From: an uncultured Elusimicrobia bacterium
Lineage (GTDB): Bacteria > Elusimicrobiota > Elusimicrobia > UBA1565 > UBA9628
Assembly (NCBI GenBank): GCA_964510095.1
Contig: CAZEAE010000002.1
Location: forward strand, 22,639 to 86,638
Reading direction: 5' to 3'
Length of the DNA stretch: 64,000 nucleotides
Made by a program: the position numbers and the translations under genes. The notes under the pieces are model-generated. The model worked only from the letters and a program-made list of their open reading frames with translations, made no database searches and was not told the origin of the DNA. Shown piece after piece: positions 20,277-63,877 of the stretch. Each line of letters opens with the position of its first letter. Within the stretch, counting starts at the first letter, position 1.

Positions 20277-20348
20277 GGGCCCGTAGTTCAAAGGATAGAG
20301 CACGTGGCTTCGAACCACGGGATCCGGGTTCGATTCCTGGCGGGCCCA
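20277..20348 (+). tRNA. tRNA-Arg (anticodon TCG); CCA not encoded
   Basis: Cloverleaf by hand: acceptor GGGCCCG/CGGGCCC, D-arm GTTC-AAAGGATA-GAGC, anticodon stem CGTGG/CCACG with loop CTTCGAA (U33-TCG-A37), T-arm CCGGG-TTCGATT-CCTGG, discriminator A. TAGAAT -10-like hexamer 9 nt upstream. Confidence 0.85.
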
Positions 20349-48282: not shown

Positions 48283-49182
48283 CTAGCCCTGGGTCGTCAA
48301 GGAGGCGAGCCGTTCCTCGAATCTGACCCGGGGGACGGCGCCTTCTTCCTTTAAGAGGAAATACTTGCTGGCCTTTTGGGACAGGATCGTGAGGAACTTG
48401 GCGGGCACGCCGGCGCGCCGATAGGCCGCCAGCTTGTGATGACCGTCGAGGACGAAGCCGGCGAAGAAGGAGTGCAGGTTCTTGTTCTGCCCTTTCTTGA
48501 CGGCTTCCGGGATGCCGCGCTGATACATGCCCAGCATCAGGATGCGCGGACGGTCGCCGTTGGTGATCATCGATTGATAGAGCTTGATGTATTCCTCTTT
48601 CAGCGCGGCGCGCGGCACCAGAGGGATGACGAAATCGAACTGCTTTTCCATGACGCCGGTGTCGGCGTTGCGGAAGATCCGGGGCCGCTGGCTCTCGTAG
48701 TGCTCCCAGCCGGACAGAAGGCCTTCTTCCTTCGGGTCCGAGATGTCCCAGAGCTCCATGAACTCGCTGTTGAAGAAATAAGAGCCTTCGTCCTCGCTGT
48801 CATAAGGTCCGCCCAGGTTGATGGAGGTCTCGAAGACCTCGTACTCGCCCTTCTCCATGAGGTCGAGCATCGGGGAGAGTTCCTGGACCATCGATTCGTC
48901 GATGGGACGGGGGAGCTGGATGGTCTTGGGGAGGTTGGCGATCTTCTTCTGGCTGGAGAGCCGCGGCTCGTGCAGGCACTTGAACCAGAAATGGCAGGTA
49001 TCGCAGTCGTTGCCGATCTCGAACTTGCGGGAGCCATTGATCTCAAGGAAGATGGAATTGGCTTCGCCGTGCTTCTTCTCCACGCCGATCTTGAAGAAAC
49101 CCTTGCCCTGGTTCAGCTTGACCTTCATCAGGCCGTCGGCCAACCGGGTGACCTCCAGCTTCGGAGCCGTTTCTGATTTCAT
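48283..49182 (-). CDS. Hypothetical protein (299 aa, no signal peptide, Cys cluster GNDCDTCHFWFKCLH), first gene of the giant-protein operon
   Basis: Clean ORF with slightly lower GC (about 60%) than its surroundings. No recognisable family. Confidence 0.55.
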   Translation of the reverse strand: MKSETAPKLEVTRLADGLMKVKLNQGKGFFKIGVEKKHGEANSIFLEINGSRKFEIGNDCDTCHFWFKCLHEPRLSSQKKIANLPKTIQLPRPIDESMVQELSPMLDLMEKGEYEVFETSINLGGPYDSEDEGSYFFNSEFMELWDISDPKEEGLLSGWEHYESQRPRIFRNADTGVMEKQFDFVIPLVPRAALKEEYIKLYQSMITNGDRPRILMLGMYQRGIPEAVKKGQNKNLHSFFAGFVLDGHHKLAAYRRAGVPAKFLTILSQKASKYFLLKEEGAVPRVRFEERLASLTTQG

Positions 49183-49248
49183 GAAAAGAGGATACCGCTA
49201 AAGCGTCCGGATGTCAAGCAACCGGAGGCGGCTGACATGCGCGACGCC

Positions 49249-49277
49249 TTGACAGATTCGGCCGCGAGGAGCATACT
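49249..49277 (+). promoter_or_regulatory. Sigma70-like promoter TTGACA-17 nt-CATACT placed for a leaderless PAS-kinase transcript
   Basis: The -10 hexamer ends 6 nt before the ATG at 49284. No SD. Confidence 0.4.
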
Positions 49278-49283
49278 TAGCCC

Positions 49284-50342
49284 ATGGCCGAGCGGACCTT
49301 CGAGGATGCCCTGCTCCGCGAGGCTTTCGCGCTCTCGGAAGAGCCTCTGGCGGCGCTCGACGCGGGACGCAAGATAAGGCTCTTCAGCCGCGGCGCGGCG
49401 CGCCTGCTGGGGCGCGACGCCTGCGGCCAGCCGGCTTCAAGCCTGTTCGCGGAACCTTCCGCCTGCGAGGACCTCCTGCTGCTGGCCGCCGAAAGCGGCT
49501 CGCTGTCTGGCTGCGAGGCTTGGCTCAAGCACAGCAACGGGGGGAGGCTTCGGCGCCGTGTCGGTGTCCGAACGCTCGAGGGAAAAGGGGCTCCCGCCGG
49601 CTGGCTATTGAGCTTCGAGGCCTCGGCGCCGCGGCAGGGAGCGGCGGCGAAAGGCGAAAAGACCGGCGCGCTCGTCCAGCTCGAGCGTTTTGCCGCGGTC
49701 GGCCGCATGGCCGCTTCCTTCGCCCATGACGTGCGCGGGCCGCTCCATGTGATAGCTTCCGCCTCCGAATCGGCGCTTTCCGGCATGCCTGAGGCCCACC
49801 CCCTGCGCCCCGCGCTCGACATGATCGGCCGCAATGCCGTTCATGCGGCGCTCTCGGCGCAGTCTCTGCTCGATTTCGCCAAGACCGGCAGCGCCCAGCT
49901 GAAGACCGAACCGCTGGATCCGGTCGTCTCCGCCGCGCTGAACCTGGCGGAGAAGGACTGCCTCGACGCCGGCATCAAGGTCCAGCGCGCCTTGGGGGAC
50001 CCGCCGGCGCTGCCCTTGGACGCCCGCCTCCTGCAGGGGGTGTTCTATAACCTGATCACCAACGCCCGGCAAGCGATGGCCCGCGGAGGGACCTTGACGG
50101 TCAGCACCGGCCGCGACCGCCGCGGCACCTTCGCCGTCGTGGCGGACACGGGAGCGGGGATGTCGGCCGAGACCCTGGGCCGAGCTTCGAAGGCATTTTT
50201 CACGACCAAAAGCTCCGGCACGGGCCTGGGTCTCTACGCTTGCCGCCTCATCCTGGCCGAGCATCAGGCCGAGCTCATCCTGGAGTCGGCCAAAGGACGC
50301 GGCACCTCGGCGCGCATCCGTTTCCAAGACTCGACTCAATAA
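49284..50342 (+). CDS. Cytoplasmic PAS-domain sensor histidine kinase
   Basis: No TM. N-terminal PAS-like region. H-box FAHDVRGPL. HATPase_c N/G boxes (YNLITNARQAM, DTGAGM, GTGLGLYACR). Confidence 0.85.
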   Translation: MAERTFEDALLREAFALSEEPLAALDAGRKIRLFSRGAARLLGRDACGQPASSLFAEPSACEDLLLLAAESGSLSGCEAWLKHSNGGRLRRRVGVRTLEGKGAPAGWLLSFEASAPRQGAAAKGEKTGALVQLERFAAVGRMAASFAHDVRGPLHVIASASESALSGMPEAHPLRPALDMIGRNAVHAALSAQSLLDFAKTGSAQLKTEPLDPVVSAALNLAEKDCLDAGIKVQRALGDPPALPLDARLLQGVFYNLITNARQAMARGGTLTVSTGRDRRGTFAVVADTGAGMSAETLGRASKAFFTTKSSGTGLGLYACRLILAEHQAELILESAKGRGTSARIRFQDSTQ

Positions 50343-50410
50343 ATCCGCAATACCGTTCTCCTATATTTAGAACGCTCACGGTTCAACAATCTAAAGGAAC
50401 GGAGAAATCG

Positions 50411-51208
50411 ATGCCTGAAGAGTCCCTCTGGCTGCGGCCCAGAGCCGCGGCGGCCCTCTCGCTGCTCCTGGTATTGAAGGCCCTGCCGGCTGCGGCCGCT
50501 CCGGCCGCCCAAGCCGTGCTCCGGCTGGACGGACGGCTGACGGACGCCTCTCAGGCTCCGCTGGCCGGCAACTATCTGCTGCGGTTCGGGATCTGGGACG
50601 CGCCTCGGGACGGCAGTGAGGTCTGGAGCGAGTCGCTCTACGTCAGCGCCAAGGACGGCTTCTATACGGCGCTTCTCGGGCGGCTCAAGCCTCTGCCCAC
50701 TACGGTGATGGATTCGGCCTACCGCCTAGAGGTCTCGGCTCCGCCCGGGACCGGCTGGCTGTCCCAGTCCTTGAAGGCGCCGACCCTGAGCCGGGGCGCC
50801 CCGGCGGAGCCGCAGTTCACTCCCGATCCCGGTCTGCGGGTCGAATCCGACCCGATCCAAGCCTCCGCGCCGGCGCCGGCATCGGAGCCGGTGAGGACCC
50901 CTCGGCCCGCGCCCACGGCGCCCCCGGCATCGTCCTCGGTCGTCGTGCTGCCCGACGCGGCGGCCTTGGCCAAGGAATTGGCCGCGGTCAAGGAAGAGCT
51001 GGACCGGCGCAAAACGGCGGGTTTCGAGACCAGGATCTACCAGGTCCTGGCCGGCGACACCCTGCGCAGCGTCGCCGTCAAGCTCTATGGCGACGCCGAG
51101 CGCTGGATAGACCTCTATCAAGCCAACGACGACCGGATATCGCGCGGCGGCGAGCTGATCGCAGGCCAGCGCCTGCTGGTCCCGCGCGAGGGCGCGATCA
51201 AGAGATAA
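50411..51208 (+). CDS. Secreted LysM-domain protein
   Basis: Signal peptide. Ala/Pro-rich linker. C-terminal LysM YQVLAGDTLRSVAVKLYGDAERWIDLYQANDDRI...GQRLLVP. GGAG SD. Confidence 0.75.
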   Translation: MPEESLWLRPRAAAALSLLLVLKALPAAAAPAAQAVLRLDGRLTDASQAPLAGNYLLRFGIWDAPRDGSEVWSESLYVSAKDGFYTALLGRLKPLPTTVMDSAYRLEVSAPPGTGWLSQSLKAPTLSRGAPAEPQFTPDPGLRVESDPIQASAPAPASEPVRTPRPAPTAPPASSSVVVLPDAAALAKELAAVKEELDRRKTAGFETRIYQVLAGDTLRSVAVKLYGDAERWIDLYQANDDRISRGGELIAGQRLLVPREGAIKR

Positions 51209-51214
51209 TCCGCG

Positions 51215-54200
51215 ATGAACGACTGGGACGAAGAAGCCCTGCGGGAGATCGGCAGCCTCGACGCCGCCCGTTTGGCTATCCGGGGGGCGCTGGCCACCAT
51301 CCGCGACCTCCAGGACATCAACTCCCAGGCCAAGGCGGAGATCCAGGACGAAGCCAGCAAGCGCAAGCATGTCGAAGCCAAGGCCGCCGAGCTCGCCGCC
51401 CAGCTGGAGCAATGGAAGAAGGAAGCCGAACAATGGGCGCAGGAGCGCGCCGAGCGGGCCAAGAACGAAGGCCAGTGGCGCGACTCCGCTCGCGCGCAGG
51501 TCCGCGCCGAGGAACGCGCGCGCATCGAGGAAGCGCGCGTCCGCGTCGATGAGGAGCTGGGCCGCCTGCGCGCCGAGCTGGAGAGCATGGTCCTGCTGCA
51601 GAAGGAGAAGGACCAGAAATGGTCGCTCCTCAAAAAGCAGGTCGAGGCCCGCGACGCCGAGCTGCTGGCCGCCCAGCGCGAGAAGCTCGACCTCAACAAC
51701 CGGTTCGCCCACGACGCCGATATGCTCGAGCGCATGCGCCAGCAGCGCGACCGCGAGATCGCCGCCTCCATCCGCAGCCGCGAGCTCGAGCTCGAGGACA
51801 AGCAGCGCGAGATCCAGGCGCTCAGATCCCAGGGCGACGAGCTCAAGCAGGTCCTGGCCGCCTCCGCTCAGGACCAGGAGCTCAAGAGCAAGGCCGCCGA
51901 AGAGAAGTTCATCCGCGACTACCGCGCCAAGGAACAAGCGCTCGTCGAAAAATACGCCAAGCGCGAGGCGGAGCTGCAGTCCTCTTGGTCCGAGCTGGAG
52001 AACGGGCTCTGGGCCAGGACCAAGGACGCGCGCGAGAAGCTGGACAAGGCCGTCCACAGCCAGTTCGAGGAGCGCGCCCGCTCCCTGGCGGACCGCACCA
52101 AGGAAACCGAGTCGCACCTGGCCGCGCGGGCCAAGGAGCTCGAAGAGTCTTTCATCCGCAAGTGCGCCGAGGCCGAGGCGCTCTACGCCCAGCGCGAGCA
52201 CGCCCTGCAGGAAGGCTGGCGCGACAAGGAGTCCAAGTCGATCCTGCGCTTCGAGGAAGAGCTGGCTCACGAGAAAGCCCTGGTCCAAGAGCAATCCGCG
52301 GCTCGAGGGAGGTCCGCGGAGGCCCTGCTCGATGAGAAGCTCCGCGAGCTCGCGCTGAAGGCCGAGCAGCTCGACGCCGAATTCCGCCACCGGACTTCGC
52401 TGGCGCTGGAGGATCATGCCCGCAAGGACGCCGAGCGCTTGCGCGCCCAAGACGATTTCGTGGCCCAGAAGGCCGCCGAGCTCGACGGCGAGCATCGCGC
52501 CAAGATCTCCGAGCTCAATGAGAAGGACGTCGTCCGCCAGGAGGCCTTCAACCTCAAGGAGACGGCCGCCTCTCAAGAGCTCAATCAGAAGAAGCTCGAT
52601 CTTCTAGAGCAGCACGAGCGCGCCGTCGAGCTGGAAAAATCCGCCCTTCACGAGCAGCTGGAGCAGAAGGCGCGCACCCTTGACGAGGCCTTCCGGGCCA
52701 AGGTCCTGGAGACCGAGCGCGCCCAGGCCGCCCTCGAGGAGCAGTATCGGAACTGGAAGGCCTCCGTGGTCGCCGACTACGCGCTGAAGGAGAAGGACCT
52801 CGACAAGCGCTGGCATACCAGGGAGCAGGAGCTTCTGCGCAACCATGCCATCGCCATGGAGACCCAGCGCGGCGATTTCCACATCGAGTCGCAGAAGACG
52901 CGCGACCAGTTCGAGCAGCAGCGCAAGCGCTCCGAGCTGGATTTCTTCGCCAGGGAAGCCAAGGCGAAGGATGCCTACGAGCGCCTGGAGCGAGAGCTCA
53001 AGGAGACCTGGGCCGCTCGCGAGGACGAGCTTCATAAGCTCCATGAGGCCCATCTCGAAGCCGCCCGCGAGCAGCACCGCAAGGAGCTCCGGCTTCACGC
53101 CGAGCACGCCGCCAACGAGACGGGGCGCGTCCGCACCGCCGGCGCGCTTGAAGCCAACGCCCTGCGCGAGGCCCACCAGAAGGACGCCGCGGCCAAGGAC
53201 CGCCAGCTGGCCGACAAGGAGCTCTTGCGGCAGGCTGAAGCCGATGCCGGCCAAGCCGCCGTCGCCAAGATCCGCGAGAAGCTGGCGGAAGCCGAGCGCA
53301 TGCACCAGGCCCTCACCCAGGACTTTTGGGCGCGCGAGCGCTCCTGGGAAGCCGAACGCCAGGGCGCGCGCGACCAGCAGAAGCAGCTCGACGCGGCGCG
53401 CGAGCAGAAATTCTTCGAGCTGGAGCGCTCGCTGCAGAGCGTCTGGAGCCGCAAGGAGGCCGAGGCGGCGGCCGCCCACCAAGCCGCCCTGGAGAAGCAG
53501 CACGCCTTGTTCCTGGAAGACCTGGCCCAGCGCGAGGAGGCCCATCGCCTGGCCTTCGACGAGCACAAGAAGCTGTCGGCCGTCGACCTCGAGCTGCAGA
53601 AGAAGGACTGGATGGACCGCCAAAGCCTCAGCCTCATCCAGGAGAAGGAGCGCCTGCAGGCCGAGAACCACCGCGTCCACGAGCAGCTGCAGAACGAAGG
53701 GCGCGCCCGAGAGAAGGAGCTGTCCGACCGGCGCAAGGCGCTGGAAGCCCATCACCACTTCGAGACCGAGCAGCAGACGAAGGAATGGAACAAGCGCGAG
53801 GCGCATCTGCGCCAGCAGCAGGCCGTCGACCTAGCCAAGGCCCGCGCCGAGCTCGACATCTCGCTGCGCGAGCGCGAGACTTCCTTGAACGAGCGCTACC
53901 TGGCCCTGGAGAAGGAGCTGCACGCCAACTGGGCCTCCAAGCAGCAGGCCGCCGACGAGCAGGGCAAGGCTCGGCTGGCCCAGGACCTCCACGCTCTGGA
54001 AGAGCGCGCCGCCCAGCGCCTCAAGCAGCTGGAAAGCGAGTTCCTCCTGCGAAAAGACGCCGAACTCTCCTCCCAGCGCAACGAGGTCGAAATCGAGCTT
54101 CAGCGCCGCCTCTCCGAGGTCGAGGCCAAGAAGGGCGAGCTCGAGCACGAATTCCTAGAGCGCCAGAAGCGCGCCGATCATGCCTATCTCGAGCGGGAGA

Positions 54201-57200
54201 AGGGCCTCGACCACGAATGGAAGGAGCGCGAGGCCCAGCTCATGGCCCGCATCGAGGACGAACGTCAGGAATACCGCGCCAAGCTGCAGATGGAGATCGA
54301 CCGCGTCCGCTCCGAGGCCGCCGCCCGCCTGCGCCAGAAGGAATTGGCGCTGGAGACCGAGAAGAGCGCGGCTATGGCGAAGGTCCAAGCGCAGCTCGAC
54401 GAGCAGCGCGCCGTCCTGGAGCATGAGAGCGCCCAATGGCTGGCCGCCCATAAGAAGACCATGGATTCCGAGCGCGAGACCCTGCAGGCCCAGACGCGCC
54501 GGGAGTTCGCCTCCGTGGCCGCCACGCTCAAACAGAAGGAAGACGAGCTGGGCAAGCGGCGCGAAGCCCTCGACGAGCACATCCGCCGCCGAGAAGCCGA
54601 ACTCGTCTCCCAGGCGCGCTCGAAGGAGAAGGAATTCGTCGAGCAGCAGCAGGCGCTGTCGGCCAAGGACCGAGCCGCCCTCGACGCGCTTTATCGGGAT
54701 CGCGAATCGTCGCTGCAGAAGAGCTACGTGGCGTTGGAAGCGGAGCTCAAAGGTTCCTGGGCGCAAAAGGACGCGCAGCTCAAGGCCGAGGGCGAGCAGC
54801 GCATGACCCACCATTTCAAGCTGCTCGACGAGCAATTCAGGGAAAAAGAAGCCCGGCTCGGTGAAGAGACCCGACGCAAGAACGAGGCTCTGCTCGAGGG
54901 CGAGCTGAAGTCGCTGCGCGCCGACTGGACGAAGCGCCGCGACGCCCTGGAGGCCGACAAGGCCCAGCGAGAGGCGGAACTGCGCCAACGCGAGCGGTCT
55001 GCCGAAGAAGCGCGCGCCGCGCAGGCCGCCGCGCTGCAGGCGGAGTCCGCCGCCGCCTTGGAGGCGGAGAGGCGCGCCCTCGAAGCGGAGCGCCAGGAGC
55101 TCGCGATCGCGGCCGCCAAGCGCGCCGCCGAGCTCGACCGCGCGAAGGCCGACATGGACAGGGAGCTGGCGCGCCAGCGCCTGGCGCAGGAACAGCAATC
55201 CCATAAGAGCGAGCTGGAACGCGCGGCGGCCTTCGAGAGGGAGAAGGCCGAGCTGGCCCGGCTGCTGGAGTCGCGCAAGGCCGAGCTCGACGCGGCCCGG
55301 GAAGCGCTGGACGCCTCCTATCAGGACAAGCATGCCGTGCTGGACTCCGAGATGGTCCGCCTCGCCGAACAGACCCAGAAGGCGCGCCTGGCCTTCGAGG
55401 CCCAGGCGCATCAGCGCGAGCTGGAGCGCGCCGCCGCCCTGGAGAAGGAGAAAGCCGGCCTCGAGACGGCCAAGCACGCGCTGGAGGCCGCCGGCCGCGT
55501 CAAGCAATCCGCGCTGGAAGCCGAGCGCAAGCGCTTGGCCGAAGAAGCTCAGAAGACGCGCTTGGCCTTCGAGCAGCAGGCCCGGCAGAAGGAGGTCGAG
55601 CGCGCGGCCGCCTTCGAGGCCGCCCAGGCAGAGCTCAAGGCCGCCAAGGAATCCGTCGAGGCCGAGCGCATCCGGCTCGCCGAGGAAGCCGAAAGGGGCC
55701 GGCGCGCCGCCGAGCAGTCGGCCCACGACGGCGAGAAAGCGCACCGCGCGCGGCTCGAAGAGGAGCGCGCGGCGATGGCCCGCGAATTCGAGGAGAAGCG
55801 CCGTCAGCTCGAGGCCGACCTGCGCGCCCGCGCCCAGCTGGTCGCCCGCGAGGAGAACCGCCTGGAGTCCGAGGTCGCCGTCAAGCTGGAAGAGCTCGAC
55901 GCCGCCAAGGCCGCCCTCGCCGTCTCCTTCCGCGCCAAGGAGCGTGAGCTCAACTCGACCGCCGAGGCCGCCCAGCGGAAGACGGAACAGCGGCTGCAGG
56001 CGGATCGCCTGAACCTGGAAAGCGAACGCACGGCTTTCAAGGAGAGCGTCGCCAACGGTAAAGCCGAGCTCGAGCGGGCTCAGGAGTCCTGGGAGGCCGA
56101 TCATCGCGAGAAGACGGCGGCCTGGCAGAAGGAGCAGCAGCAGCGTCTCAAGGAGGCGCAGGCGGTGCTGGAAGCCGAACGCCTGGCCTTGAAAGCCAAA
56201 GCTGCCGCGCTCGACGAGGTCAAGCGCGGAGAGCTTGACGCCGCGCGGGCCGAGTTGGAGGCCGCGCTCGAGACCGAACGGCAGAGGCTCGGGCGCGAGC
56301 GCGCCGAAGCGCAAGCCGAGGCCCTCAAGCTGCGCGCCGAGATCGAGAAGGCAAAACGCTCGGCGGAAAAACAGGACGCCGAGCGGCTGCGCCGCGCCGC
56401 TGCCGCCGAGGTCGCATCGGCGGAAGCCAAGGCAAAGGAGCTGGCGCAGGCCAAAGCCTCCTTGGACAAGGATTTCGACGACCGAGTGGCGCAAGCCCAG
56501 GCCGCCGCCGACGAGGAGCATCGCGCCCTGGAAGCCGAGCGCGCCTCCTGGCGGCAGGAATCCGCCAAAGCCCGCGCCTCCGCCGAGGCCGAGTTCAAGA
56601 GCCGCGAACGCCGTCTGGCCGACGACCTGCGCCGGGCGCAGGCCGCCGAAGCCGCGCTGGCGACTCAGGCCGCGGAGAACGCCGGACGCCTGGAGCGCGA
56701 GTTCAGCGACCGGACGGCGGAGCTCGAGGCCCGGACATCCGCCGCCGAGGCGGCGCGCCGGAAGCTCGAGCACGAGCTGGAGGCCGAGAAACGGCGGCTG
56801 GGCGACGCGCTCGAAGACGCCCGGGCCCAGACCGAGGCGCTCATCGAAGTGCGCGCCCGCCTGCTGCGCAAGCCCGCCAAGGGAGAAGCCGCCTCCGCCA
56901 TCATCGAGGCGGAGCTGGAGAACCTCCGCGAATCGCAGGCGGCTCTCGAGGCCGAGCGGGAGAAGCTGGAGAAACAGCGCGCCGAGACCCAGGCTGAGGC
57001 CGCCCGCCTGCGCGCCGAGGCCGAGAAGGACAAGCGGAACTCCGAGCGCCAGGCCGCCGAGCGCCAGCGCCAGGCGCTCGCCGCGGAGTCCGCCGCCGCC
57101 GAGGAGCGGGTCAAGGAGCTCGAAGAGGCCCGCCAGGCGCTGGAGAAGGATTTCGAGGAACGCTCCGCCGAGGCGCAGGAGGCGGTGGAGGCGCAGCGGC

Positions 57201-58240
57201 GCGAGTTGGCCGCCGAACGGGCCGCTTGGCGCGCGGAGGCGGCCAAGGCCCGGGCCGCCGTCGAAGCCGAGCTCAAGGCCAAGGAGCGCCGGCTCTCTTC
57301 AGGCCTGCGCAGCGCCGAAAGCAGCGAGAGCGTGTTGGCCGCCCAGTTCCGGCAGAAGGAAGCGCTCCTCGCGATGGAAACAGCCAAGCAGGCGGCGGAG
57401 CTGGAAGCCCGCGCTTCGGCGGCCGAAGCCGCCCGGAAGAAGCTCGAGGCCGAGCTCGAGGGCGAGCGCCGGCGCTTGGCCGAGGCCATCGAGGACGCGC
57501 GCAGCCAGGAGTCCGCGCTCAAGGAGGTCCGCGCCCGCCTGCTGCGCAAGCCCGCTAAGGGCGAGAGCGGCGCCTCCAACGCGGCGGAGCTCGAGAACCT
57601 CGTCTTCGGCGTGGCGCACCAGATCCGCAACCCCTTGGGCATCATCCGCAGCCTGGCGGAGTCGCGCCGCGGGCGCATGCTCGCCAGCTCAGGAGAGCGG
57701 CAGTCCCTCGACGCCATCCTGCGCGCCATCACGAACCTTTCGGAGCGCCTGGAGGACCTCGTCGACTTCTCGCGGCCCCTGCAGCTGAGCTTCAAGAAAC
57801 AGACTCCCGCCAAGCTGCTGACGGAGCTGCGCGAGCGCGTCGCGGCGCGCTGCCAGGCGCAGCAGGTGAGCCTGAGCGCCGAGAGCCCCGAGGACCTGCC
57901 GCCCGTCAACGTCGACAAGGCGAGCCTGCTGGAAGCCCTGCTCAACGTCGCCGTCAACGCTCTGGAAGCCATGCCGCAGGGCGGGAAGCTGAGCCTATCG
58001 GCCCGGCGCGACGCCGGCCGCGGCGAGATCGTCTTCACCCTTGAGGACACCGGCCCCGGCGCCGATCCCGAGCATCTGCCCCAATTAGGGACGCCTTTCT
58101 ACACCACCAAGCCCGGAGGCGTCGGCCTGGGTTTGGCCGCCGCGCGCCGCATCCTCGCCGCCCACGGCGGGACGTTGGAATTGTCTAGTCAGAAAGGGAA
58201 AGGCTGCCGAGTCGAGTGCCGCCTTCCGGAGGCCGGTTGA
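51215..58240 (+). CDS. Giant (2341 aa) cytoplasmic coiled-coil protein fused to a C-terminal histidine-kinase transmitter (HisKA + HATPase_c)
   Basis: About 2100 residues of uninterrupted E/R/A/K/Q/L-rich heptad-like sequence with no signal peptide or TM. C-terminus has H-box ELENLVFGVAHQIRNPLGIIRSL, N-box LLNVAVNALEAM, G1 DTGPGA, G2 GGVGLGLAAARR. Begins 6 nt after the LysM stop. Stop 2 nt before the response-regulator ATG. Confidence 0.85.
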   Translation: MNDWDEEALREIGSLDAARLAIRGALATIRDLQDINSQAKAEIQDEASKRKHVEAKAAELAAQLEQWKKEAEQWAQERAERAKNEGQWRDSARAQVRAEERARIEEARVRVDEELGRLRAELESMVLLQKEKDQKWSLLKKQVEARDAELLAAQREKLDLNNRFAHDADMLERMRQQRDREIAASIRSRELELEDKQREIQALRSQGDELKQVLAASAQDQELKSKAAEEKFIRDYRAKEQALVEKYAKREAELQSSWSELENGLWARTKDAREKLDKAVHSQFEERARSLADRTKETESHLAARAKELEESFIRKCAEAEALYAQREHALQEGWRDKESKSILRFEEELAHEKALVQEQSAARGRSAEALLDEKLRELALKAEQLDAEFRHRTSLALEDHARKDAERLRAQDDFVAQKAAELDGEHRAKISELNEKDVVRQEAFNLKETAASQELNQKKLDLLEQHERAVELEKSALHEQLEQKARTLDEAFRAKVLETERAQAALEEQYRNWKASVVADYALKEKDLDKRWHTREQELLRNHAIAMETQRGDFHIESQKTRDQFEQQRKRSELDFFAREAKAKDAYERLERELKETWAAREDELHKLHEAHLEAAREQHRKELRLHAEHAANETGRVRTAGALEANALREAHQKDAAAKDRQLADKELLRQAEADAGQAAVAKIREKLAEAERMHQALTQDFWARERSWEAERQGARDQQKQLDAAREQKFFELERSLQSVWSRKEAEAAAAHQAALEKQHALFLEDLAQREEAHRLAFDEHKKLSAVDLELQKKDWMDRQSLSLIQEKERLQAENHRVHEQLQNEGRAREKELSDRRKALEAHHHFETEQQTKEWNKREAHLRQQQAVDLAKARAELDISLRERETSLNERYLALEKELHANWASKQQAADEQGKARLAQDLHALEERAAQRLKQLESEFLLRKDAELSSQRNEVEIELQRRLSEVEAKKGELEHEFLERQKRADHAYLEREKGLDHEWKEREAQLMARIEDERQEYRAKLQMEIDRVRSEAAARLRQKELALETEKSAAMAKVQAQLDEQRAVLEHESAQWLAAHKKTMDSERETLQAQTRREFASVAATLKQKEDELGKRREALDEHIRRREAELVSQARSKEKEFVEQQQALSAKDRAALDALYRDRESSLQKSYVALEAELKGSWAQKDAQLKAEGEQRMTHHFKLLDEQFREKEARLGEETRRKNEALLEGELKSLRADWTKRRDALEADKAQREAELRQRERSAEEARAAQAAALQAESAAALEAERRALEAERQELAIAAAKRAAELDRAKADMDRELARQRLAQEQQSHKSELERAAAFEREKAELARLLESRKAELDAAREALDASYQDKHAVLDSEMVRLAEQTQKARLAFEAQAHQRELERAAALEKEKAGLETAKHALEAAGRVKQSALEAERKRLAEEAQKTRLAFEQQARQKEVERAAAFEAAQAELKAAKESVEAERIRLAEEAERGRRAAEQSAHDGEKAHRARLEEERAAMAREFEEKRRQLEADLRARAQLVAREENRLESEVAVKLEELDAAKAALAVSFRAKERELNSTAEAAQRKTEQRLQADRLNLESERTAFKESVANGKAELERAQESWEADHREKTAAWQKEQQQRLKEAQAVLEAERLALKAKAAALDEVKRGELDAARAELEAALETERQRLGRERAEAQAEALKLRAEIEKAKRSAEKQDAERLRRAAAAEVASAEAKAKELAQAKASLDKDFDDRVAQAQAAADEEHRALEAERASWRQESAKARASAEAEFKSRERRLADDLRRAQAAEAALATQAAENAGRLEREFSDRTAELEARTSAAEAARRKLEHELEAEKRRLGDALEDARAQTEALIEVRARLLRKPAKGEAASAIIEAELENLRESQAALEAEREKLEKQRAETQAEAARLRAEAEKDKRNSERQAAERQRQALAAESAAAEERVKELEEARQALEKDFEERSAEAQEAVEAQRRELAAERAAWRAEAAKARAAVEAELKAKERRLSSGLRSAESSESVLAAQFRQKEALLAMETAKQAAELEARASAAEAARKKLEAELEGERRRLAEAIEDARSQESALKEVRARLLRKPAKGESGASNAAELENLVFGVAHQIRNPLGIIRSLAESRRGRMLASSGERQSLDAILRAITNLSERLEDLVDFSRPLQLSFKKQTPAKLLTELRERVAARCQAQQVSLSAESPEDLPPVNVDKASLLEALLNVAVNALEAMPQGGKLSLSARRDAGRGEIVFTLEDTGPGADPEHLPQLGTPFYTTKPGGVGLGLAAARRILAAHGGTLELSSQKGKGCRVECRLPEAG
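56271..57578 (+). repeat. Diverged internal tandem duplication (about 650 bp x 2) within the coiled-coil kinase gene
   Basis: Two about 215-aa segments share collinear similarity (...LDKDFDDRVAQAQAA...ARLLRKPAKGEAAS vs ...LEKDFEERSAEAQEA...ARLLRKPAKGESGAS). The second copy ends exactly where the HisKA dimerisation region begins. Confidence 0.6.
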
Positions 58241-58242
58241 TC

Positions 58243-59436
58243 ATGGCTAAGGTATTGGTCGTAGACGACGAAGCGGACATGCGGCTGGCCTTGCGCACCG
58301 TGCTCGAGCAAGGAGGTCACTCCGTGGAAGAGGCGGGCGACGGCCCCGCCGCGCTGGAGCGCGTGGCGCGGGGGGGGCTCGACTTGGTCCTGCTCGACAT
58401 CCGCCTGCCCGGCATGGACGGCCGGCAGATCCTGCGGCGGATCCGGGAGCAGACCGCGGATCTGCCCGTCATCATGGTCAGCGGCTACGGCAGCGTGGAC
58501 TCCGCCGTCGAGGTCCTGCAGCTGGGCGCCAGCCACTATCTGGCCAAACCCTTCAGCAACAAGGAGCTCAGCGACACCATCGCCCGCGTCCTGGACCCCC
58601 AGCTGGCGCAGGAAGGAGCGCTGCGCCGCCGGCTTTCCCAGAAAGTCAGCGCGCTGGGCGCGGAAAGCCCGCCGCGGGCGGCGCAGGCGAGCTCCTTGCC
58701 CGTCTCGGCCCTGGCTATGGGCTTGGCGGCGGTCGTCCTGCTCGGCGGCCTCCGGTGGGCCTGGCGCTCGGAGAGCGGCGGCAGCACGACGATACCTTAC
58801 CTGCATCCGACGGCGATCTGCTGGGTCGGGGATACCCTCTGGAGCGCGGATTGGTTCACGCAGACGATCTACGAACAAAGGCTCAAGGGCTCGAAGCTCG
58901 AGCTGGTGCGCTCGGTGCGGCTCCCAGAGACGCACGTCACCGGGCTGACCGTGGTCGGAGACCGCCTTTACCTGACCGACTCATGGAAGAAAGTCGTCGA
59001 AAAGCGGCGGATCGACGCGACCCTCTCCCTGGTGGAATCCTCGCCCAGCCCCGGCTCCAAGCCCTCGGGCCTCTTCTGGGACGGCCGCTACCTCTGGTCG
59101 AGCGATTCGGCCACCGGGCGCTTCTATCAGCACGACGTCGATGGAAGCCTGAGCGTGCTGGCCTCCTACAAGAGCCCGGGGAAGACTCCGGCCGGCATGT
59201 ACAAGGACGCCCAGTACTTCTGGTCGGCCGACGCCGACACCCGCATGCTCTACCAGCACAGGCTCGACAACGAGCTGCGGGTCGTGGCGCGCTACAGCCT
59301 GCCGGCGCTCGACGAGGGCACGCAAGCCCTATCCTGCTTCACCTTCAAGGATGGACTGTTGTGGCTGGGCCGCGACGGCCGCGCCAAACTGCTCCGCTCG
59401 GAACTCAAGGCCTTCCGGAAGCTCTCGGCGTCCTAG
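58243..59436 (+). CDS. Response regulator with N-terminal REC domain, one TM segment and a C-terminal W/Y-rich beta-propeller-like repeat domain
   Basis: REC motifs (VLVVDDEADMRLAL, D54 in LVLLDIRLPGMDG, PVIMVSGYG, K in LAKPF). Hydrophobic segment LAMGLAAVVLLGGL. Five or more repeats of type YLWSSDSATGRFYQHD / YFWSADADTRMLYQHR. Confidence 0.8.
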   Translation: MAKVLVVDDEADMRLALRTVLEQGGHSVEEAGDGPAALERVARGGLDLVLLDIRLPGMDGRQILRRIREQTADLPVIMVSGYGSVDSAVEVLQLGASHYLAKPFSNKELSDTIARVLDPQLAQEGALRRRLSQKVSALGAESPPRAAQASSLPVSALAMGLAAVVLLGGLRWAWRSESGGSTTIPYLHPTAICWVGDTLWSADWFTQTIYEQRLKGSKLELVRSVRLPETHVTGLTVVGDRLYLTDSWKKVVEKRRIDATLSLVESSPSPGSKPSGLFWDGRYLWSSDSATGRFYQHDVDGSLSVLASYKSPGKTPAGMYKDAQYFWSADADTRMLYQHRLDNELRVVARYSLPALDEGTQALSCFTFKDGLLWLGRDGRAKLLRSELKAFRKLSAS

Positions 59437-59549
59437 GGAAGCCCCGTCGAGGAATGGCCTTGACAGGACGGGGCAATCCTGTTATAAATGAGTGTTCATC
59501 TAACCTCTGGGTTATAGAACGCCGAGACATCAGTGGGGGGGTAAATACT

Positions 59550-59822
59550 ATGAGCGAAGATAGAGGTAGCGCCGGGGTCCTGTTTTTCCTTGTCGGAGCC
59601 GCCGTCGGAGCCGGGCTGGGCGTCTTGTTCGCGCCGAAGGCCGGGAAAGAGACCCGCGAGCAGATCGGCGACTGGCTGAAGGAGCGCCGGGAAGCCGGTT
59701 CGGACCTGCTGGAGAAGATCAAGGAAGAGGGCTCCAGCAAGAAGGAGGCGATCACCGCCGCCATCAAGGCCGGAAAGCAGGCCTATAACGAGTCCAAGCA
59801 CCACGAATCGGTCAACTCCTAA
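59550..59822 (+). CDS. YtxH-like small membrane-associated protein
   Basis: 90 aa: N-terminal hydrophobic GVLFFLVGAAVGAGLGVLFAPKAGKETREQI followed by a charged helix. GGGGG SD. The track's 355-aa ORF is a spurious 5' extension. Confidence 0.7.
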   Translation: MSEDRGSAGVLFFLVGAAVGAGLGVLFAPKAGKETREQIGDWLKERREAGSDLLEKIKEEGSSKKEAITAAIKAGKQAYNESKHHESVNS

Positions 59823-59838
59823 GACCCGTTCGTCCGAT

Positions 59839-59872
59839 GAAGGCCCCCCGAAAGGGGGGCCTTCTTTTTTTC
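59839..59872 (+). terminator. Strong rho-independent terminator
   Basis: GAAGGCCCCCC-GAAA-GGGGGGCCTTC perfect 11-bp GC stem followed by T8. Confidence 0.85.
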
Positions 59873-59911
59873 TGATTTTAAGAGTTGACAAGCCTCGCCG
59901 CTCCTGTTAGC

Positions 59912-60340
59912 ATGGAGAGCAGAACCATGGCCAGTCCGCCGACCACTTCGTCGCGCCCGCAGGATAAGATGATCTTCGTCATCGATGACGATGCCACGGT
60001 CCGCGACCTGCTCGAGCTCCTGATCGAAGGCGAGGGCTTCCGCTGCGAGACCGCCGCGGACGGCGAGGAGGGGCTGCAGAAGATCGGCAAGCTTCGGCCC
60101 GACCTGATCCTTCTGGACCTCATGCTGCCGCGCTACGGAGGCATCGAGATCCTTCGTCAGCTGCAGACCGGAGACACCGCCTCCATCCCGATCGTGGTCG
60201 TGACCGGACGCTACGCCGACGCCACGACCTCGGAAATGATCCGCCAGGAACCCAACGTCGTCGATTTCATCGAGAAACCGATCAACACCAAGCCCTTCGG
60301 GCTGCTGCTCCACAAGATCCTCCAGACCAAGCCGATCTAA
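59912..60340 (+). CDS. Single-domain response regulator (CheY-like REC only)
   Basis: REC motifs (IFVIDDDATVRDLL, DLILLDLMLPRYGG, IPIVVVTGR, EKPI). ATG at 59912 chosen (in-frame TTG 59885 and ATG 59927 are alternatives). TTGACA -35-like hexamer at 59885. Confidence 0.85.
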   Translation: MESRTMASPPTTSSRPQDKMIFVIDDDATVRDLLELLIEGEGFRCETAADGEEGLQKIGKLRPDLILLDLMLPRYGGIEILRQLQTGDTASIPIVVVTGRYADATTSEMIRQEPNVVDFIEKPINTKPFGLLLHKILQTKPI

Positions 60341-60954
60341 GGACGGCGCTTGGCCTTGAGCAGCGGCGGCAGCGAGGCTCCCGCGGAGATCGCCGCCTGG
60401 ATCCCCTCCTGCAAGGTCAGCGGCGTCGCCAGGACCGCCTCCTTGGGGACCAGGATGTAGTCGCCGATGTACATGTGGTTCGTCGGGATGTAAACGCAGA
60501 CCATGGCCGAGACGACCTCCCCATCGGCCAGGCTCACCTCGTTGGTCAGAAAACCCACGGAATAGACGCCGGGCCGGGGGAATTCCACGAGGACGACGCT
60601 CTTGAACGAATTCTTCCCGTTCGGCGAGAAGAGCTCCGCCACCTGCTTGATCGTCTTGTACAGCCAGTTGAAGATCGGGATGCGAAGGAGCAGCTCCTCG
60701 AAAAGGTCGAGGAGATGCTGGCCGACGATGTTGCTGGCCAGCGCGCCGGTGCCCAGGATGACCGCCACCGCCGTGATCAGCCCCAGGCCGGGGATGCGTT
60801 GACCCGAGACCTGCGTGAGCGGCATCACCAGGCCCTCGATGAAGGCCACGAGCCAGGCCAGCAGCATGAAGGTCAGGCCGAAGGGGGCTAGGACGAAGAG
60901 GCCGGTCAGAAACAGCCGCTGCAGCCGCCGCAGCGTCAGCAGCACGCTCTTCAC
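60337..60954 (-). CDS. DUF502-family membrane protein
   Basis: 205 aa. Two N-terminal TM helices and conserved ...PIFNWLYKTIKQV...VVLVEFPRPGVYSVGFLT... pattern of DUF502. Confidence 0.8.
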   Translation of the reverse strand: MKSVLLTLRRLQRLFLTGLFVLAPFGLTFMLLAWLVAFIEGLVMPLTQVSGQRIPGLGLITAVAVILGTGALASNIVGQHLLDLFEELLLRIPIFNWLYKTIKQVAELFSPNGKNSFKSVVLVEFPRPGVYSVGFLTNEVSLADGEVVSAMVCVYIPTNHMYIGDYILVPKEAVLATPLTLQEGIQAAISAGASLPPLLKAKRRP

Positions 60955-61772: not shown

Positions 61773-61773
61773 G

Positions 61774-63425: not shown

Positions 63426-63877
63426 TTGATCCCCAGGCGACCTCTCGCCATCGCCTTAAGATGCTCGGCAAGCTCGGCGTTGTTGGTCAGGATGTAGTGC
63501 AGGTCGACAAAAGCAAGCATGAAGACCAAGACCCTCCCCATCGCCACGGCCGTGGCGCCGCGCACTCCGTCTCGCAGCAGCGCGATCTCGCCTAGCAGGT
63601 CGCCTGGGCCCAGCGTCGCCAAGGTCGTCGAAGCGTTGCCCAGGCTCTTGCGTATCTCCACATGGCCGGAATAGAGGATGAAAAGGTCGCGGCCGGCGTC
63701 GCCCTGCTCTATGATGTGGAAATCGTTGGCCACGATGAAGAGGCCGCTATGGGGGAAAAGCTTGGTCGCATGCTCCCCCAAGAACTCGGGGAAGAAGCCG
63801 TCGAGCTTCAATGCCTGGGACAGGAAAGCCGCGCCGGCGTCGTCGATGGGCAGCCTCTCAGGGGCGACGCCGCTCAT
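63422..63877 (-). CDS. Cyclic-nucleotide-binding domain protein
   Basis: 151 aa. cNMP-binding beta-roll motifs (GDAGRDLFILYSGHVEI..., GPGDLLGEIALL..., RGATAVA). Confidence 0.8.
   Translation of the reverse strand: MSGVAPERLPIDDAGAAFLSQALKLDGFFPEFLGEHATKLFPHSGLFIVANDFHIIEQGDAGRDLFILYSGHVEIRKSLGNASTTLATLGPGDLLGEIALLRDGVRGATAVAMGRVLVFMLAFVDLHYILTNNAELAEHLKAMARGRLGIK

What the first reader, a model, noticed from the sequence alone, without database searches (positions are those of the whole stretch)
49284..60340. Candidate novel signalling locus: PAS-HK, secreted LysM, giant coiled-coil HK, REC-TM-propeller, YtxH and stand-alone REC
Six co-oriented genes form a compact block (49284-60340) bounded by a leaderless-type promoter and a strong terminator. 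The block combines two kinases, two receivers, a peptidoglycan-binding (LysM) secreted protein and a YtxH membrane protein. The LysM to coiled-coil kinase to REC-propeller trio is tightly spaced (6 nt and 2 nt). The whole arrangement looks like a cell-envelope or peptidoglycan-linked phosphorelay with an unusual mechanical or scaffolding component, and the gene neighbourhood matches nothing I know.
Basis: inference. Interest (0 to 1): 0.75.

Follow-up and report, generated by a model that had tools for sequence, protein, structure and literature searches.

The report
Giant rod kinase, periplasmic-propeller response regulator
A groundwater Elusimicrobiota contig carries a conserved signalling pair that nobody has described: a histidine kinase on a 2,100-residue helical rod and a membrane-anchored response regulator whose only "output" is a five-bladed propeller in the periplasm, usually next to a peptidoglycan-binding LysM protein.

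Summary
The six genes and their domains are real. The strong terminator, however, lies inside the block, before the last gene. YtxH and the lone receiver each have their own promoter-like site, so the block reads as G1-G4 | G5 | G6.

The conserved core is smaller and stranger than proposed. The kinase (G3) and the REC-TM-propeller regulator (G4) are adjacent in 25 of 25 non-redundant related loci; every source-named G4 homologue is from Elusimicrobiota. A LysM protein accompanies them in about 15 loci.

The kinase varies from a bare 218-aa catalytic core to 4,222 aa. The extension is proline-free helix with 11-residue (non-heptad) periodicity. Different lineages expanded it from different repeat units.

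Paralogues fuse a cytoplasmic coil, sometimes with a degenerate receiver, directly to the same TM-propeller. This ties rod and propeller together.

Best reading: a plain two-component pair, not a phosphorelay, that couples a cytoplasmic rod to a wall-linked envelope complex, possibly signalling inside-out. It is a new variant of a known kind, and its function is inferred.

The parts
49249..49277 (+). Promoter-like site TTGACA-17-CATACT. It ends 6 nt before the G1 ATG, which fits a leaderless start. A mirror site on the - strand (49217-49189) serves the divergent 299-aa gene.
   Evidence: 3 sites found against 0.4 expected in shuffles
49284..50342 (+). G1: soluble 352-aa histidine kinase. It has a weak PAS-like N-terminus, H-box His148, and N, G1 and G2 boxes. 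It is an accessory gene, not part of the universal core.
   Evidence: G1-like kinases recur in L093, L131, L100, L106, L107, L108 and L133.
50411..51208 (+). G2: secreted 265-aa protein. It has a signal peptide, a roughly 100-aa N-terminal domain, a Pro-rich linker and a C-terminal LysM domain.
   Evidence: Full-length orthologues occur in L130, L131, L093, L088 and L089. In distant loci only the LysM domain is shared, fused to a barrel.
51215..57598 (+). G3 rod, residues 1-2128. It has a conserved head of about 40 aa (MNDWDEEALREIGSLDAARLAIRGALATIRDLQ), then helix with no proline up to residue 1886. A/E/R/K/Q/L make up 75% of residues. The hydrophobic period is 3.68 and there are internal duplications. 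No TM segment is present.
57599..58240 (+). G3 kinase core, residues 2129-2341. DHp with H-box FGVAHQIRNP (His2135); N box at 2244, G1 box at 2278 and G2 box at 2302.
   Evidence: It is orthologous to the bare 218-aa kinases that start at the same H-box.
58243..58602 (+). G4 receiver domain, residues 1-120. D8, D9, D52 and K102 are invariant in 28 homologues.
58603..58776 (+). G4 linker, residues 121-178: helix 126-139, a low-confidence stretch 139-153, and the TM helix at about 148-176.
58777..59436 (+). G4 periplasmic five-bladed beta-propeller, residues 179-397 (21 strands).
59460..59488 (+). Promoter-like TTGACA-17-TATAAA in front of YtxH. I read it by eye; the scan tool does not list it because the last base is not T.
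59550..59822 (+). G5: 90-aa YtxH-family membrane protein. Probably its own transcription unit.
59839..59874 (+). Intrinsic terminator: an 11-bp stem with 9 G-C pairs, a GAAA loop and a T-run. It lies between G5 and G6.
59885..59913 (+). Promoter-like TTGACA-17-(TG)TAGCAT in front of G6.
59927..60340 (+). G6: stand-alone 137-aa receiver with the acidic pocket, Asp, Thr and Lys present. Accessory gene with its own unit.
   Evidence: Lone receivers also flank the pair in L105, L108/L109, L004 and L122.

Best explanation
The real unit is an Elusimicrobiota-associated envelope module built on one two-component pair.

Components:
- G3 is a soluble HisKA kinase with no sensor domain. Its DHp helix is continued N-terminally by about 2,100 residues of proline-free alpha-helix ending in a conserved 40-aa head.
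- G4, translationally coupled with a 2-nt gap, is G3's cognate response regulator. It is a bitopic inner-membrane protein: receiver in the cytoplasm, one TM helix, five-bladed beta-propeller in the periplasm.
- G2 is a periplasmic partner that binds peptidoglycan.

Proposed working:
- The kinase phosphorylates Asp52 of G4.
- Like other receivers, G4 then changes its dimer or contact state.
- G4 has no cytoplasmic effector domain, so the consequence is one of two things. Either the TM-propeller re-arranges (inside-out signalling towards the LysM/peptidoglycan/outer-membrane partners), or the rod's docking to the membrane anchor becomes regulated.
- The rod acts as a length-selected scaffold or spacer that links the envelope anchor to something bound by its distant head.
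- G1, G5 and G6 are accessory genes. They recur nearby in some lineages but are separately transcribed or separately partnered.

Shown: domain identities, catalytic motifs, topology, fold, gene adjacency, rod periodicity and length variation, and the fusion paralogues.
Inferred: phosphotransfer from G3 to G4, the G2-G4 contact, the direction of signalling and the biological role.
For: 1. Pairing. A G3-type kinase sits immediately upstream of the regulator on the same strand in 24 of 25 non-redundant loci that have at least 600 bp of upstream DNA. In the 25th (L004) it is adjacent on the opposite strand. G4 identity in these loci falls as low as 32%. In L094 the pair stands alone among sugar-metabolism genes.

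2. Both partners look active. The H, N, G1 and G2 boxes are present, and D8/D9/D52/K102 are invariant.

4. The kinase has no input domain. The shortest orthologues (218-234 aa) start at the H-box.

5. Rod and propeller belong together. Among the best 150 cluster representatives of the propeller family, my composition-based sorting gives about 42 REC-TM-propeller and 23 coil(200-930 aa)-TM-propeller proteins. A further class of about 690 aa has a coil and a partial, degenerate receiver-like segment (hhalign aligns it to the C-terminal half of the receiver) in front of the TM-propeller. The two of these paralogues that carry a source name are from Elusimicrobia, and one comes from a genome that also has a G4 homologue.

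6. Rod length looks selected. Kinase length runs from 218 to 4,222 aa. The periodicity is 3.68 (power 19.9 against a shuffle maximum of 11.6). The top self-identity lag is 11 in the three closest homologues and third in the window, after the 226-aa duplication. Other lineages show independent repeat units of 67, 175 and 345 aa.

7. Envelope link. LysM proteins flank the pair in about 15 loci. In distant loci the LysM domain is fused to a PorP/TraF-like outer-membrane barrel next to giant fn3/CHU_C surface proteins. A coil-TM-propeller paralogue also sits next to a giant Kelch protein and a PorV-like barrel.
Against: - No experiment or transcript data exists for any member.
- I do not know of any receiver that transmits through a single TM helix to a periplasmic domain (my knowledge, plus empty literature searches).
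- LysM is missing from several loci with long flanks (L094, L115, L121/L123, L098/L099), so it cannot be obligatory.
- The window's G2 shares only its LysM domain with the barrel-LysM proteins of distant loci.
- AF2 on residues 1-600 as a monomer from a single sequence (pLDDT 73.7, pTM 0.34) gives helices of 39-121 residues separated by short breaks. The rod may therefore fold back rather than extend to about 310 nm.
- Shared ancestry inflates synteny among the closest loci.
Confidence: 0.45

Rival explanations
1. Outside-in sensing. The periplasmic propeller is the sensor, as the NHL propeller of the mycobacterial kinase PknD is thought to be. Ligand binding, perhaps of wall fragments presented by the LysM protein, changes how accessible the G4 receiver is. 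G4 then works as a gated phosphate sink or an allosteric partner of the sensor-less kinase. The true output goes through another regulator, such as G6 or an NtrC-type protein elsewhere.
For: - The kinase has no input domain of its own, so some input must come from a partner.
- Propellers of this family are always extracytoplasmic, behind a TM helix or signal peptide.
- Stand-alone receivers and second kinases recur next to the pair.
- An NtrC-type regulator sits in L131.
Against: - The minimal loci (L094, L110, L113, L119, L006) hold only one receiver, the one on G4.
- In the window G6 lies behind a terminator with its own promoter.
- The coil-TM-propeller paralogues have no phosphorylatable domain at all. 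The propeller-coil link therefore works without phosphotransfer.
Confidence: 0.25
2. The propeller is a periplasmic enzyme of the glutaminyl-cyclase type (N-terminal pyroglutamate formation on secreted proteins) or a related lyase/lactonase. The receiver and kinase only tune its amount, place or activity.
Against: - There is no sequence-level match to the cyclase family. No Pfam family matched at E up to 10, though HMMER's filters drop most matches above about 0.1. No cyclase appears among the 26 PDB profile hits. Identity in the structural alignments is 11-16%.
- The invariant residues are mostly Trp, Asp and Gly of the blade repeats.
- The same propeller hangs on long coils in paralogues, which fits a binding module better than an enzyme.
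Confidence: 0.1
3. One reading: all six genes form one co-transcribed multi-step phosphorelay in which two kinases feed two receivers.
For: All six are co-oriented and tightly packed. Each of the six gene types recurs near the pair in at least some other loci.
Against: - No Hpt domain or hybrid kinase is present.
- A terminator and promoter-like sites separate G5 and G6.
- G1's homologue in L131 has its own NtrC-type regulator.
- YtxH/DUF502 synteny is limited to close relatives.
Confidence: 0.1
4. Chance neighbourhood: unrelated signalling genes that happen to lie together, with the giant ORF an ordinary coiled-coil protein fused by accident to a kinase.
For: Two-component genes are abundant, and a receiver alone finds thousands of relatives.
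Against: Kinase and regulator are adjacent in 25 of 25 loci down to 32% identity. The rod-kinase fusion recurs in many lineages with independently expanded repeats.
Confidence: 0.03

Closest known systems
Classical HisKA/REC two-component systems of the AtoS-AtoC, ZraS-ZraR and NtrX type
   Same: The kinase cores of G3 and G1 score best against AtoS and ZraS (E 1e-45 and 1.9e-39). The G4 receiver scores best against RpaB, NtrX, AtoC and NtrC, and its top Foldseek hits are NtrX. All catalytic motifs are present. Some G4 homologues are even annotated 'sigma-54-dependent Fis family transcriptional regulator'.
   Different: G4 has no AAA+ or HTH output. A TM helix and a periplasmic propeller take their place. 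The kinase has no TM or sensor domain and carries 0 to about 4,000 residues of rod instead.
Bacterial (plant-type) glutaminyl cyclases (PDB 3mbr, 3nok, 3nol) and the E. coli YjiK C-terminal domain (3qqz)
Polar hub proteins HubP (Vibrio) and FimV (Pseudomonas): periplasmic LysM, one TM helix and a large repetitive cytoplasmic region (from my knowledge of the literature)
   Same: The same three ingredients in the same compartments: LysM on the wall, a single-pass membrane link and a very large repetitive cytoplasmic part that organises other proteins.
   Different: Here the ingredients are split over three proteins (G2, G4, G3). The link contains a kinase-receiver interface, and the periplasmic part of the membrane protein is a propeller. 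No sequence relationship was tested.
Caulobacter PodJ: cytoplasmic coiled coils, one TM helix and a periplasmic peptidoglycan-binding region, acting as scaffold for the kinase PleC (from my knowledge)
   Same: The architecture matches the coil-TM-propeller paralogues. It also shows a coiled-coil scaffold tied to a histidine kinase and to the wall.
   Different: PodJ recruits a separate kinase. In G3 the coil and the kinase are one polypeptide. PodJ's periplasmic domains are of other types. Homology was not tested.
Type IX secretion accessories: PorXY, and type-B CTD cargo with PorP/SprF-like anchors (PMC9143113, PMC12152298)
   Same: In distant loci the pair sits directly after a giant fn3/CHU_C protein and a PorP/SprF- or TraF-like barrel. 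The window itself has an M4 protease with a Por_Secre_tail-like end next to a PorV-like barrel at 20900-25908.
   Different: PorX is REC + PglZ and cytoplasmic. The window's G2 has no barrel. The Pfam matches to T9SS families are weak. No paper in the held library mentions Elusimicrobia together with T9SS or PorV.
Non-heptad bacterial rod proteins (Streptomyces Scy/FilP) and receiver-plus-coil proteins (Myxococcus AglZ, FrzS) (from my knowledge)
   Same: Very long helical rods with non-heptad periodicity, and two-component domains attached to a coil.
   Different: In G3 the coil is on the kinase, not on the receiver. The length range (0 to more than 4,000 aa within one orthologous family) is far wider.

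Membership tests
HisKA-type histidine kinase (G3, G1) | DHp domain with a phospho-acceptor His in an H-box | tested here: met
   G3 His2135 in FGVAHQIRNP, HisKA 33.4 bits (cut-off 26.9). G1 His148 in FAHDVRGP, HisKA 21.8 bits, below the cut-off but with the motif present.
HisKA-type histidine kinase (G3, G1) | HATPase_c domain with N, G1 and G2 boxes | tested here: met
   HATPase_c scores 79 and 62.6 bits. The N, DxGxG and GxGLG motifs were located in both proteins.
Response regulator receiver (G4, G6) | CheY-like fold with an acidic pair, phospho-Asp, Ser/Thr and Lys | tested here: met
Cognate kinase-regulator pair (G3 to G4) | Specific phosphotransfer | not testable with these tools
   Only genomic evidence is available: a 2-nt gap in the window and adjacency in 25 of 25 loci.
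Multi-step phosphorelay | An Hpt domain, or a hybrid kinase carrying a receiver | tested here: not met
   No Hpt and no receiver on either kinase in the Pfam or NCBIfam scans of the block.
LysM peptidoglycan-binding domain (G2) | Match to the LysM profile | tested here: met
   The window protein scores 17.1 bits, below Pfam's 20.9. NCBIfam LysM gives E=2.8e-8 over residues 189-259. Orthologues score 21.0-50.3 bits. Peptidoglycan binding itself was not tested.
YtxH (G5) | Match to PF12732 above the cut-off, with an N-terminal hydrophobic helix | tested here: met
   59.2 bits against a cut-off of 37.5. The hydrophobic segment covers residues 6-31.
Plant/bacterial-type glutaminyl cyclase | Five-bladed beta-propeller fold | tested here: met
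Plant/bacterial-type glutaminyl cyclase | Sequence membership in the family | tested here: not met
   No cyclase family appeared among the Pfam matches of 13 family members at E up to 10 (most matches above about 0.1 are filtered out). No cyclase appears among the PDB profile hits at E up to 1.
Plant/bacterial-type glutaminyl cyclase | Catalytic Glu and substrate-binding residues | not tested
T9SS PorX-type regulator / PorP-anchored type-B cargo system | REC + PglZ regulator, and a PorP/SprF barrel next to CTD cargo | tested here: not met
   G4 has no PglZ domain. The window's G2 lacks a barrel. Barrel-LysM and CHU_C cargo occur only in distant loci, with weak Pfam scores.
HubP/FimV- or PodJ-like polar scaffold | A single polypeptide with a wall-binding periplasmic domain, a TM helix and a large cytoplasmic scaffold; polar localisation | not tested
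   This is an architectural analogy from memory. Here the parts lie on three proteins. Neither sequence comparison nor localisation could be done.

The most novel reading that the evidence does not exclude
This is an inside-out two-component system. A cytoplasmic rod-shaped kinase, with a length tuned lineage by lineage (up to several hundred nm if extended, comparable to the size of these small cells), reads a cytoplasmic or geometric cue through its distant head. By phosphorylating a membrane-spanning receiver, it switches a periplasmic propeller that holds wall- and outer-membrane-bound partners. That would be a bacterial, integrin-like link between an internal filament and the envelope, and the first response regulator whose output lies outside the cytoplasm.
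Probability: 0.25. Interest if true: 0.9.

Novelty: new variant of a known kind. Interest (0 to 1): 0.68.

Why it matters
Textbook two-component signalling runs from an outside sensor on the kinase to an inside effector on the regulator. In this family the kinase has no sensor, and the regulator's only non-receiver domain lies in the periplasm.

Either phosphorylation is used to act outward across the membrane, or a receiver is used as a regulated docking site for a giant cytoplasmic rod. Both would extend what receivers are known to do.

The rod's range within one orthologous family is also unusual. It runs from nothing to more than 4,000 residues and was built from unrelated repeat units in different lineages. 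That is a natural experiment on length-selected proteins (rulers, spacers, scaffolds) in very small cells.

The family is large: about 105 full-length clusters at 90% identity, and 1,069 propeller-family representatives at E<=1e-10. Databases currently call it only 'response regulator'. The recurring LysM, barrel and giant-surface-protein neighbours give a first handle on envelope organisation in a phylum with almost no cultured members.

Tried and rejected
- The genome-contig scan with the full G4 alignment was wasted. The tool chose receiver-only peptide patterns and returned 80 unrelated regulators from many phyla. Those loci (L008-L087) were not used.
- A 13-sequence propeller alignment was too divergent for the metagenome scan. 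An 8-sequence version worked.
- The full-length G3 homologue search was swamped by long PAS kinases. Only three relevant hits appeared (1,506, 3,956 and 1,824 aa), so lengths were taken from loci instead.
- The G2 homologue search gave only 6 full-length relatives.
- There is no sigma-54 promoter anywhere near G2/G3: 45 loose matches in the window against 56 expected. This was tested because L131 has an NtrC-type regulator.
- There are no DNA-level tandem repeats in the giant genes of L133, L099 or the window. The repeats are visible only at the protein level.
- Rfam found only a tRNA at 20277-20348.
- PADLOC gave only generic receiver similarity, so this is not a known defence system.
- Foldseek of the rod model gave no significant match (best E 0.01), only generic antiparallel coils such as EnvC and SMC arms.
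- The afdb50 library was unavailable.
- No propeller paralogue was found elsewhere in the window.
- The 556-aa BBP2_2 barrel that follows the LysM gene in L130 and L131 has no homologue in the window.
- Literature searches for Elusimicrobia + histidine kinase + coiled-coil, for membrane-anchored response regulators, for receiver + periplasmic + propeller, and for Elusimicrobia + T9SS found nothing relevant.
Full report
**1. Source and gene content**

The window matches a contig from an ENA groundwater metagenome, ERZ1292641 (record name Hain_H51_02um), whose gene calls place the same genes at the same boundaries. G+C is about 66%.

The finding's interval holds six + strand genes:
- G1, 49284-50342: a soluble kinase. 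HATPase_c scores 62.6 bits. HisKA and PAS_8 fall below Pfam cut-offs.
- G2, 50411-51208: signal peptide, a domain of about 100 aa, a Pro-rich linker and LysM.
- G3, 51215-58240: 2,341 aa, with HisKA and HATPase_c only at residues 2129-2340.
- G4, 58243-59436: receiver (108.3 bits), one hydrophobic segment, then a 220-aa C-terminal domain.
- G5, 59550-59822: YtxH, 59.2 bits.
- G6, 59927-60340: a lone receiver, 82.5 bits.

The 6-nt and 2-nt gaps are exact. GC3 of 0.83-0.89 supports the frames of five genes. G5's frame was not checked, because the coordinates used were off by one. The long antisense ORFs have the composition of frame shadows.

**2. Transcription signals**

- A TTGACA-17-CATACT site ends 6 nt before the G1 start codon, which fits a leaderless start. 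A mirror site serves the divergent 299-aa gene.
- The only strong terminator is an 11-bp stem at 59839-59864 followed by a T-run. It lies between YtxH and G6.
- A TTGACA-17-TAGCAT site follows the terminator at 59885-59913.
- TTGACA-17-TATAAA at 59460-59488, read by eye, precedes YtxH.

The likely units are therefore G1-G4, G5 and G6. No Hpt domain or hybrid kinase is present, so 'phosphorelay' is not the right word.

**3. The G4 family**

A search of 5.8 billion proteins gave about 105 full-length homologues, at 99% down to 32% identity. Every one that carries a source name comes from Elusimicrobia/Elusimicrobiota. Below them only receiver-only matches remain. The names are generic: 'response regulator', and in two cases 'sigma-54-dependent Fis family transcriptional regulator'.

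In an alignment of 28 members, D8, D9, E10, D52 and K102 are invariant, as are Trp/Asp/Gly positions of a five-fold repeat in the C-terminal domain.

**4. G4 structure**

AlphaFold2 with that alignment gave pLDDT 89.7. The model is:
- a receiver at residues 1-120;
- a helix at 126-139;
- a low-confidence stretch at 139-153;
- a TM helix at 155-176;
- 21 strands at 179-395.

At the sequence level the domain belongs to no described family. No Pfam family covers it, and no cyclase family appeared among the matches of 13 members even at E up to 10. A PDB profile search finds only weak YWTD, Vgb-lyase and NHL repeat matches, with E around 1e-6.

**5. Neighbourhood conservation**

I used exact-protein look-ups and a metagenome scan with a propeller-only alignment. 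I then searched the six-frame ORFs of all loci with the window's proteins.

Kinase adjacency:
- Of 25 non-redundant loci with at least 600 bp upstream of the regulator gene, 24 have a G3-type kinase immediately upstream on the same strand.
- The 25th (L004, from an assembly whose G4 homologue NCBI names Candidatus Liberimonas, 32% identity) has it adjacent on the opposite strand.
- Four shorter contigs end inside such a kinase.
- In L094 the pair stands alone between glycoside hydrolases, an ABC ATPase and a methyltransferase.

LysM adjacency:
- A LysM protein lies beside the pair in about 15 loci.
- It is upstream of the kinase in the window, L006, L104, L110-L113, L119 and L132. It is downstream of the regulator in L088, L089, L091, L093, L130 and L131.
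- In L004 it lies beyond the opposite-strand kinase.
- Several loci with long flanks lack it (L094, L115, L121/L123, L098/L099).

Two forms of the LysM protein:
- In the window's clade it is a 250-267-aa protein homologous over its full length.
- In distant loci only the LysM domain is shared. There it is fused to a PorP/SprF- or TraF_2-like outer-membrane barrel and preceded by a giant fn3/CHU_C/FlgD_ig protein.

Accessory genes:
- G1-like kinases, lone receivers, YtxH and DUF502 recur, but in changing positions and only in parts of the family.
- In L131 the G1 homologue is followed by its own NtrC-type regulator.

**6. The kinase**

Orthologous cores share the H-box FG[VMI]AHQ[IV]RNP. The shortest proteins (218-234 aa in L110, L113, L119 and L094) start right at it, with no sensor and no TM segment.

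Other members are much longer:

| Locus | Kinase length (aa) |
|---|---|
| L006 | 287 |
| L004 | 459 |
| several loci (L121, L107, L104, L115; L101 cut by a contig end) | 774-949 |
| P0069 locus (kinase domain unverified, no Pfam record) | 1,207 |
| L132 (plus a separate 1,265-aa coil gene) | 1,484 |
| L130 | 1,776 |
| window | 2,341 |
| L131 | 2,434 |
| L093 | about 2,550 |
| L109 (cut by a contig end) | at least 2,177 |
| L099 (cut by a contig end) | at least 3,161 |
| L133 | 4,222 |

Properties of the window's extension:
- It has no proline in its first 1,886 residues, and 75% of residues are A/E/R/K/Q/L.
- It has no TM segment.
- Its dominant hydrophobic periodicity is 3.68 residues, close to 11/3. 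Normalised power is 19.9, against a maximum of 11.6 in 200 shuffles. Nothing is seen at 3.50.
- Self-identity peaks at lag 11 in L093, L130 and L131. In the window lag 11 ranks third, after the 226-aa duplication and lag 58.

Other lineages show periods of 3.53-3.60 and strong protein-level repeats of 67 aa (L132b), 175 aa (L133) and 345 aa (L099). The window has duplications of about 226, 276 and 51 aa. None is visible as a DNA tandem repeat. The rod therefore appears to have been lengthened independently from different units, which points to selection on length or shape rather than sequence.

A head of about 40 aa (NPWDEE..AARLALRGA.ATIRDLQ) is conserved at the far end in the window, L130, L131, L132a and L104. 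It matches no family.

AF2 on residues 1-600 (single sequence, monomer; pLDDT 73.7, pTM 0.34) gives six helices of 39-121 residues with short breaks. Only generic antiparallel coils match it. Whether the rod is extended (about 310 nm at 0.15 nm per residue) or folded back is open.

**7. Fusion evidence**

An exhaustive HMMER search of 1.84 billion cluster representatives with the propeller alone found 1,069 proteins at E<=1e-10. I sorted the best 150 with a composition-based script:
- about 42 are REC-TM-propeller;
- 23 are a cytoplasmic coil of 200-930 aa, then TM, then propeller;
- about a dozen, of roughly 690 aa, have a coil plus an unassigned domain before the TM-propeller;
- about 34 have a short tail or signal anchor;
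- 34 are multi-repeat secreted proteins.

The sequences confirm the coil-TM-propeller layout. The two that carry a source name are from Elusimicrobia. One (P0201) is from the GWA2_69_24 genome, which also has a G4 homologue.

A profile-profile comparison aligns the unassigned domain of P0229 to the C-terminal half of the G4 receiver. The conserved Lys is replaced, and the phospho-Asp region was not aligned, so this looks like a partial, degenerate receiver.

The same membrane-anchored propeller is thus joined to a cytoplasmic coil in one of three ways: covalently, through a relic receiver, or through a live kinase-receiver interface. One coil-TM-propeller gene lies between Wza/Wzc-type export genes and a giant Kelch protein with a PorV-like barrel. 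This repeats the link to giant surface proteins and barrels.

**8. Interpretation**

Firmly supported:
- G3 and G4 are a conserved, apparently active kinase-regulator pair.
- G4 is bitopic, with a periplasmic five-bladed propeller.
- The rod is a variable, non-heptad helical extension of a sensor-less kinase.
- LysM and outer-membrane partners are frequent neighbours.

Inferred:
- G3 phosphorylates G4.
- The propeller contacts G2, the wall or a barrel.
- The direction of information flow.

I favour a regulated trans-envelope coupling in which the rod is a scaffold and the G3-G4 interface is the switchable joint, perhaps signalling inside-out (0.45). The main rival is outside-in sensing by the propeller, with G4 as a gated sink (0.25). 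Chance juxtaposition is excluded for the core.

**9. Comparison with known systems**

- The catalytic domains are ordinary AtoS/NtrC-type two-component parts.
- The propeller shares its fold, but no sequence family, with bacterial glutaminyl cyclases.
- The overall logic (LysM on the wall, a single-pass link, a huge repetitive cytoplasmic part) resembles the polar hubs HubP/FimV and the scaffold PodJ. This is from my knowledge of those proteins and was not tested here.
- The barrel and giant-cargo neighbours resemble PorP-anchored type-B cargo of type IX secretion (PMC9143113). The T9SS family matches are weak, and G4 is unlike PorX.

I found no paper or curated family describing a receiver fused to a periplasmic domain, or this kinase family. 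I rate it a new variant of a known kind, with interest 0.68.

Noticed in passing
window 42669-48149 (-): A giant 1,826-aa secreted protein lies divergently upstream of the block, beyond the 299-aa gene. It has a signal peptide, no Pfam family, about eight 20-aa repeats (PKIVEGEFGPNGKPRVKSEA; a 60-nt array at 43904-44369), a run of about 34 glycines (43300-43406) and a hydrophobic C-terminal tail. It may be a surface protein comparable to the giant cargo next to the pair in distant loci. It is not conserved in L130.
   Followed up: partly
window 48283-49182 (-): A 299-aa cytoplasmic protein with a Cys-rich motif and no Pfam or NCBIfam family. It is transcribed divergently from G1 from a back-to-back promoter pair. 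Homologues sit next to the giant kinase in L093 (E 8e-55) and L130 (E 7e-126).
   Followed up: partly
window 20900-25908 (+): A 1,286-aa thermolysin-like (M4) protease with a FlgD_ig/Por_Secre_tail-like C-terminus, followed directly by a 383-aa PorV/UPF0164-like barrel. This looks like a type-IX-style cargo/shuttle pair on an Elusimicrobiota contig. The barrel is homologous to the barrel part of the LysM-barrel proteins that flank the kinase-regulator pair in distant loci.
   Followed up: partly
window 49189-49277 and 59885-59927: Three TTGACA-17-N6 promoter-like sites end 6-14 nt before start codons (the 299-aa gene, G1 and G6). This suggests a habit of leaderless or near-leaderless mRNAs in this organism.
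   Followed up: no
L004 8681-11203: The locus from the assembly whose G4 homologue NCBI names Candidatus Liberimonas carries two tandem REC-TM-propeller paralogues (405 and 400 aa). A lone receiver precedes them, and a chemotaxis-like cluster (CheW, MCP, CheR, CheB, Hpt) lies on the other strand.
   Followed up: no
L132 1756-9992: Here the rod is split into two genes. A 1,265-aa coil protein carries the conserved N-terminal head, and a 1,484-aa coil-kinase overlaps it by 16 nt. FtsA and FtsZ lie 4-6 kb downstream.
   Followed up: no
L133 1-9998; L099 2-9484: These are the largest family members: 4,222 aa, and at least 3,161 aa (cut by a contig end). They show strong protein-level repeats of 175 and 345 residues but no DNA-level tandem repeat.
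   Followed up: partly
window 37807-42634: Wall-related neighbours on the far side of the giant secreted protein: an Amidase_2 (N-acetylmuramoyl-L-alanine amidase) protein at 39086-40207, and a 549-aa zinc-ribbon protein at 40985-42634.
   Followed up: no
window 60337-63877 (-): The downstream convergent genes are DUF502, an SDR, an enoyl-CoA hydratase, an unassigned 295-aa protein and a cNMP-binding protein; the source contig continues with a T2SSE ATPase beyond the window end. DUF502, a gene of about 300 aa and T2SSE keep their order in L130, and the last two also in L131. This synteny looks like shared ancestry rather than function.
   Followed up: no
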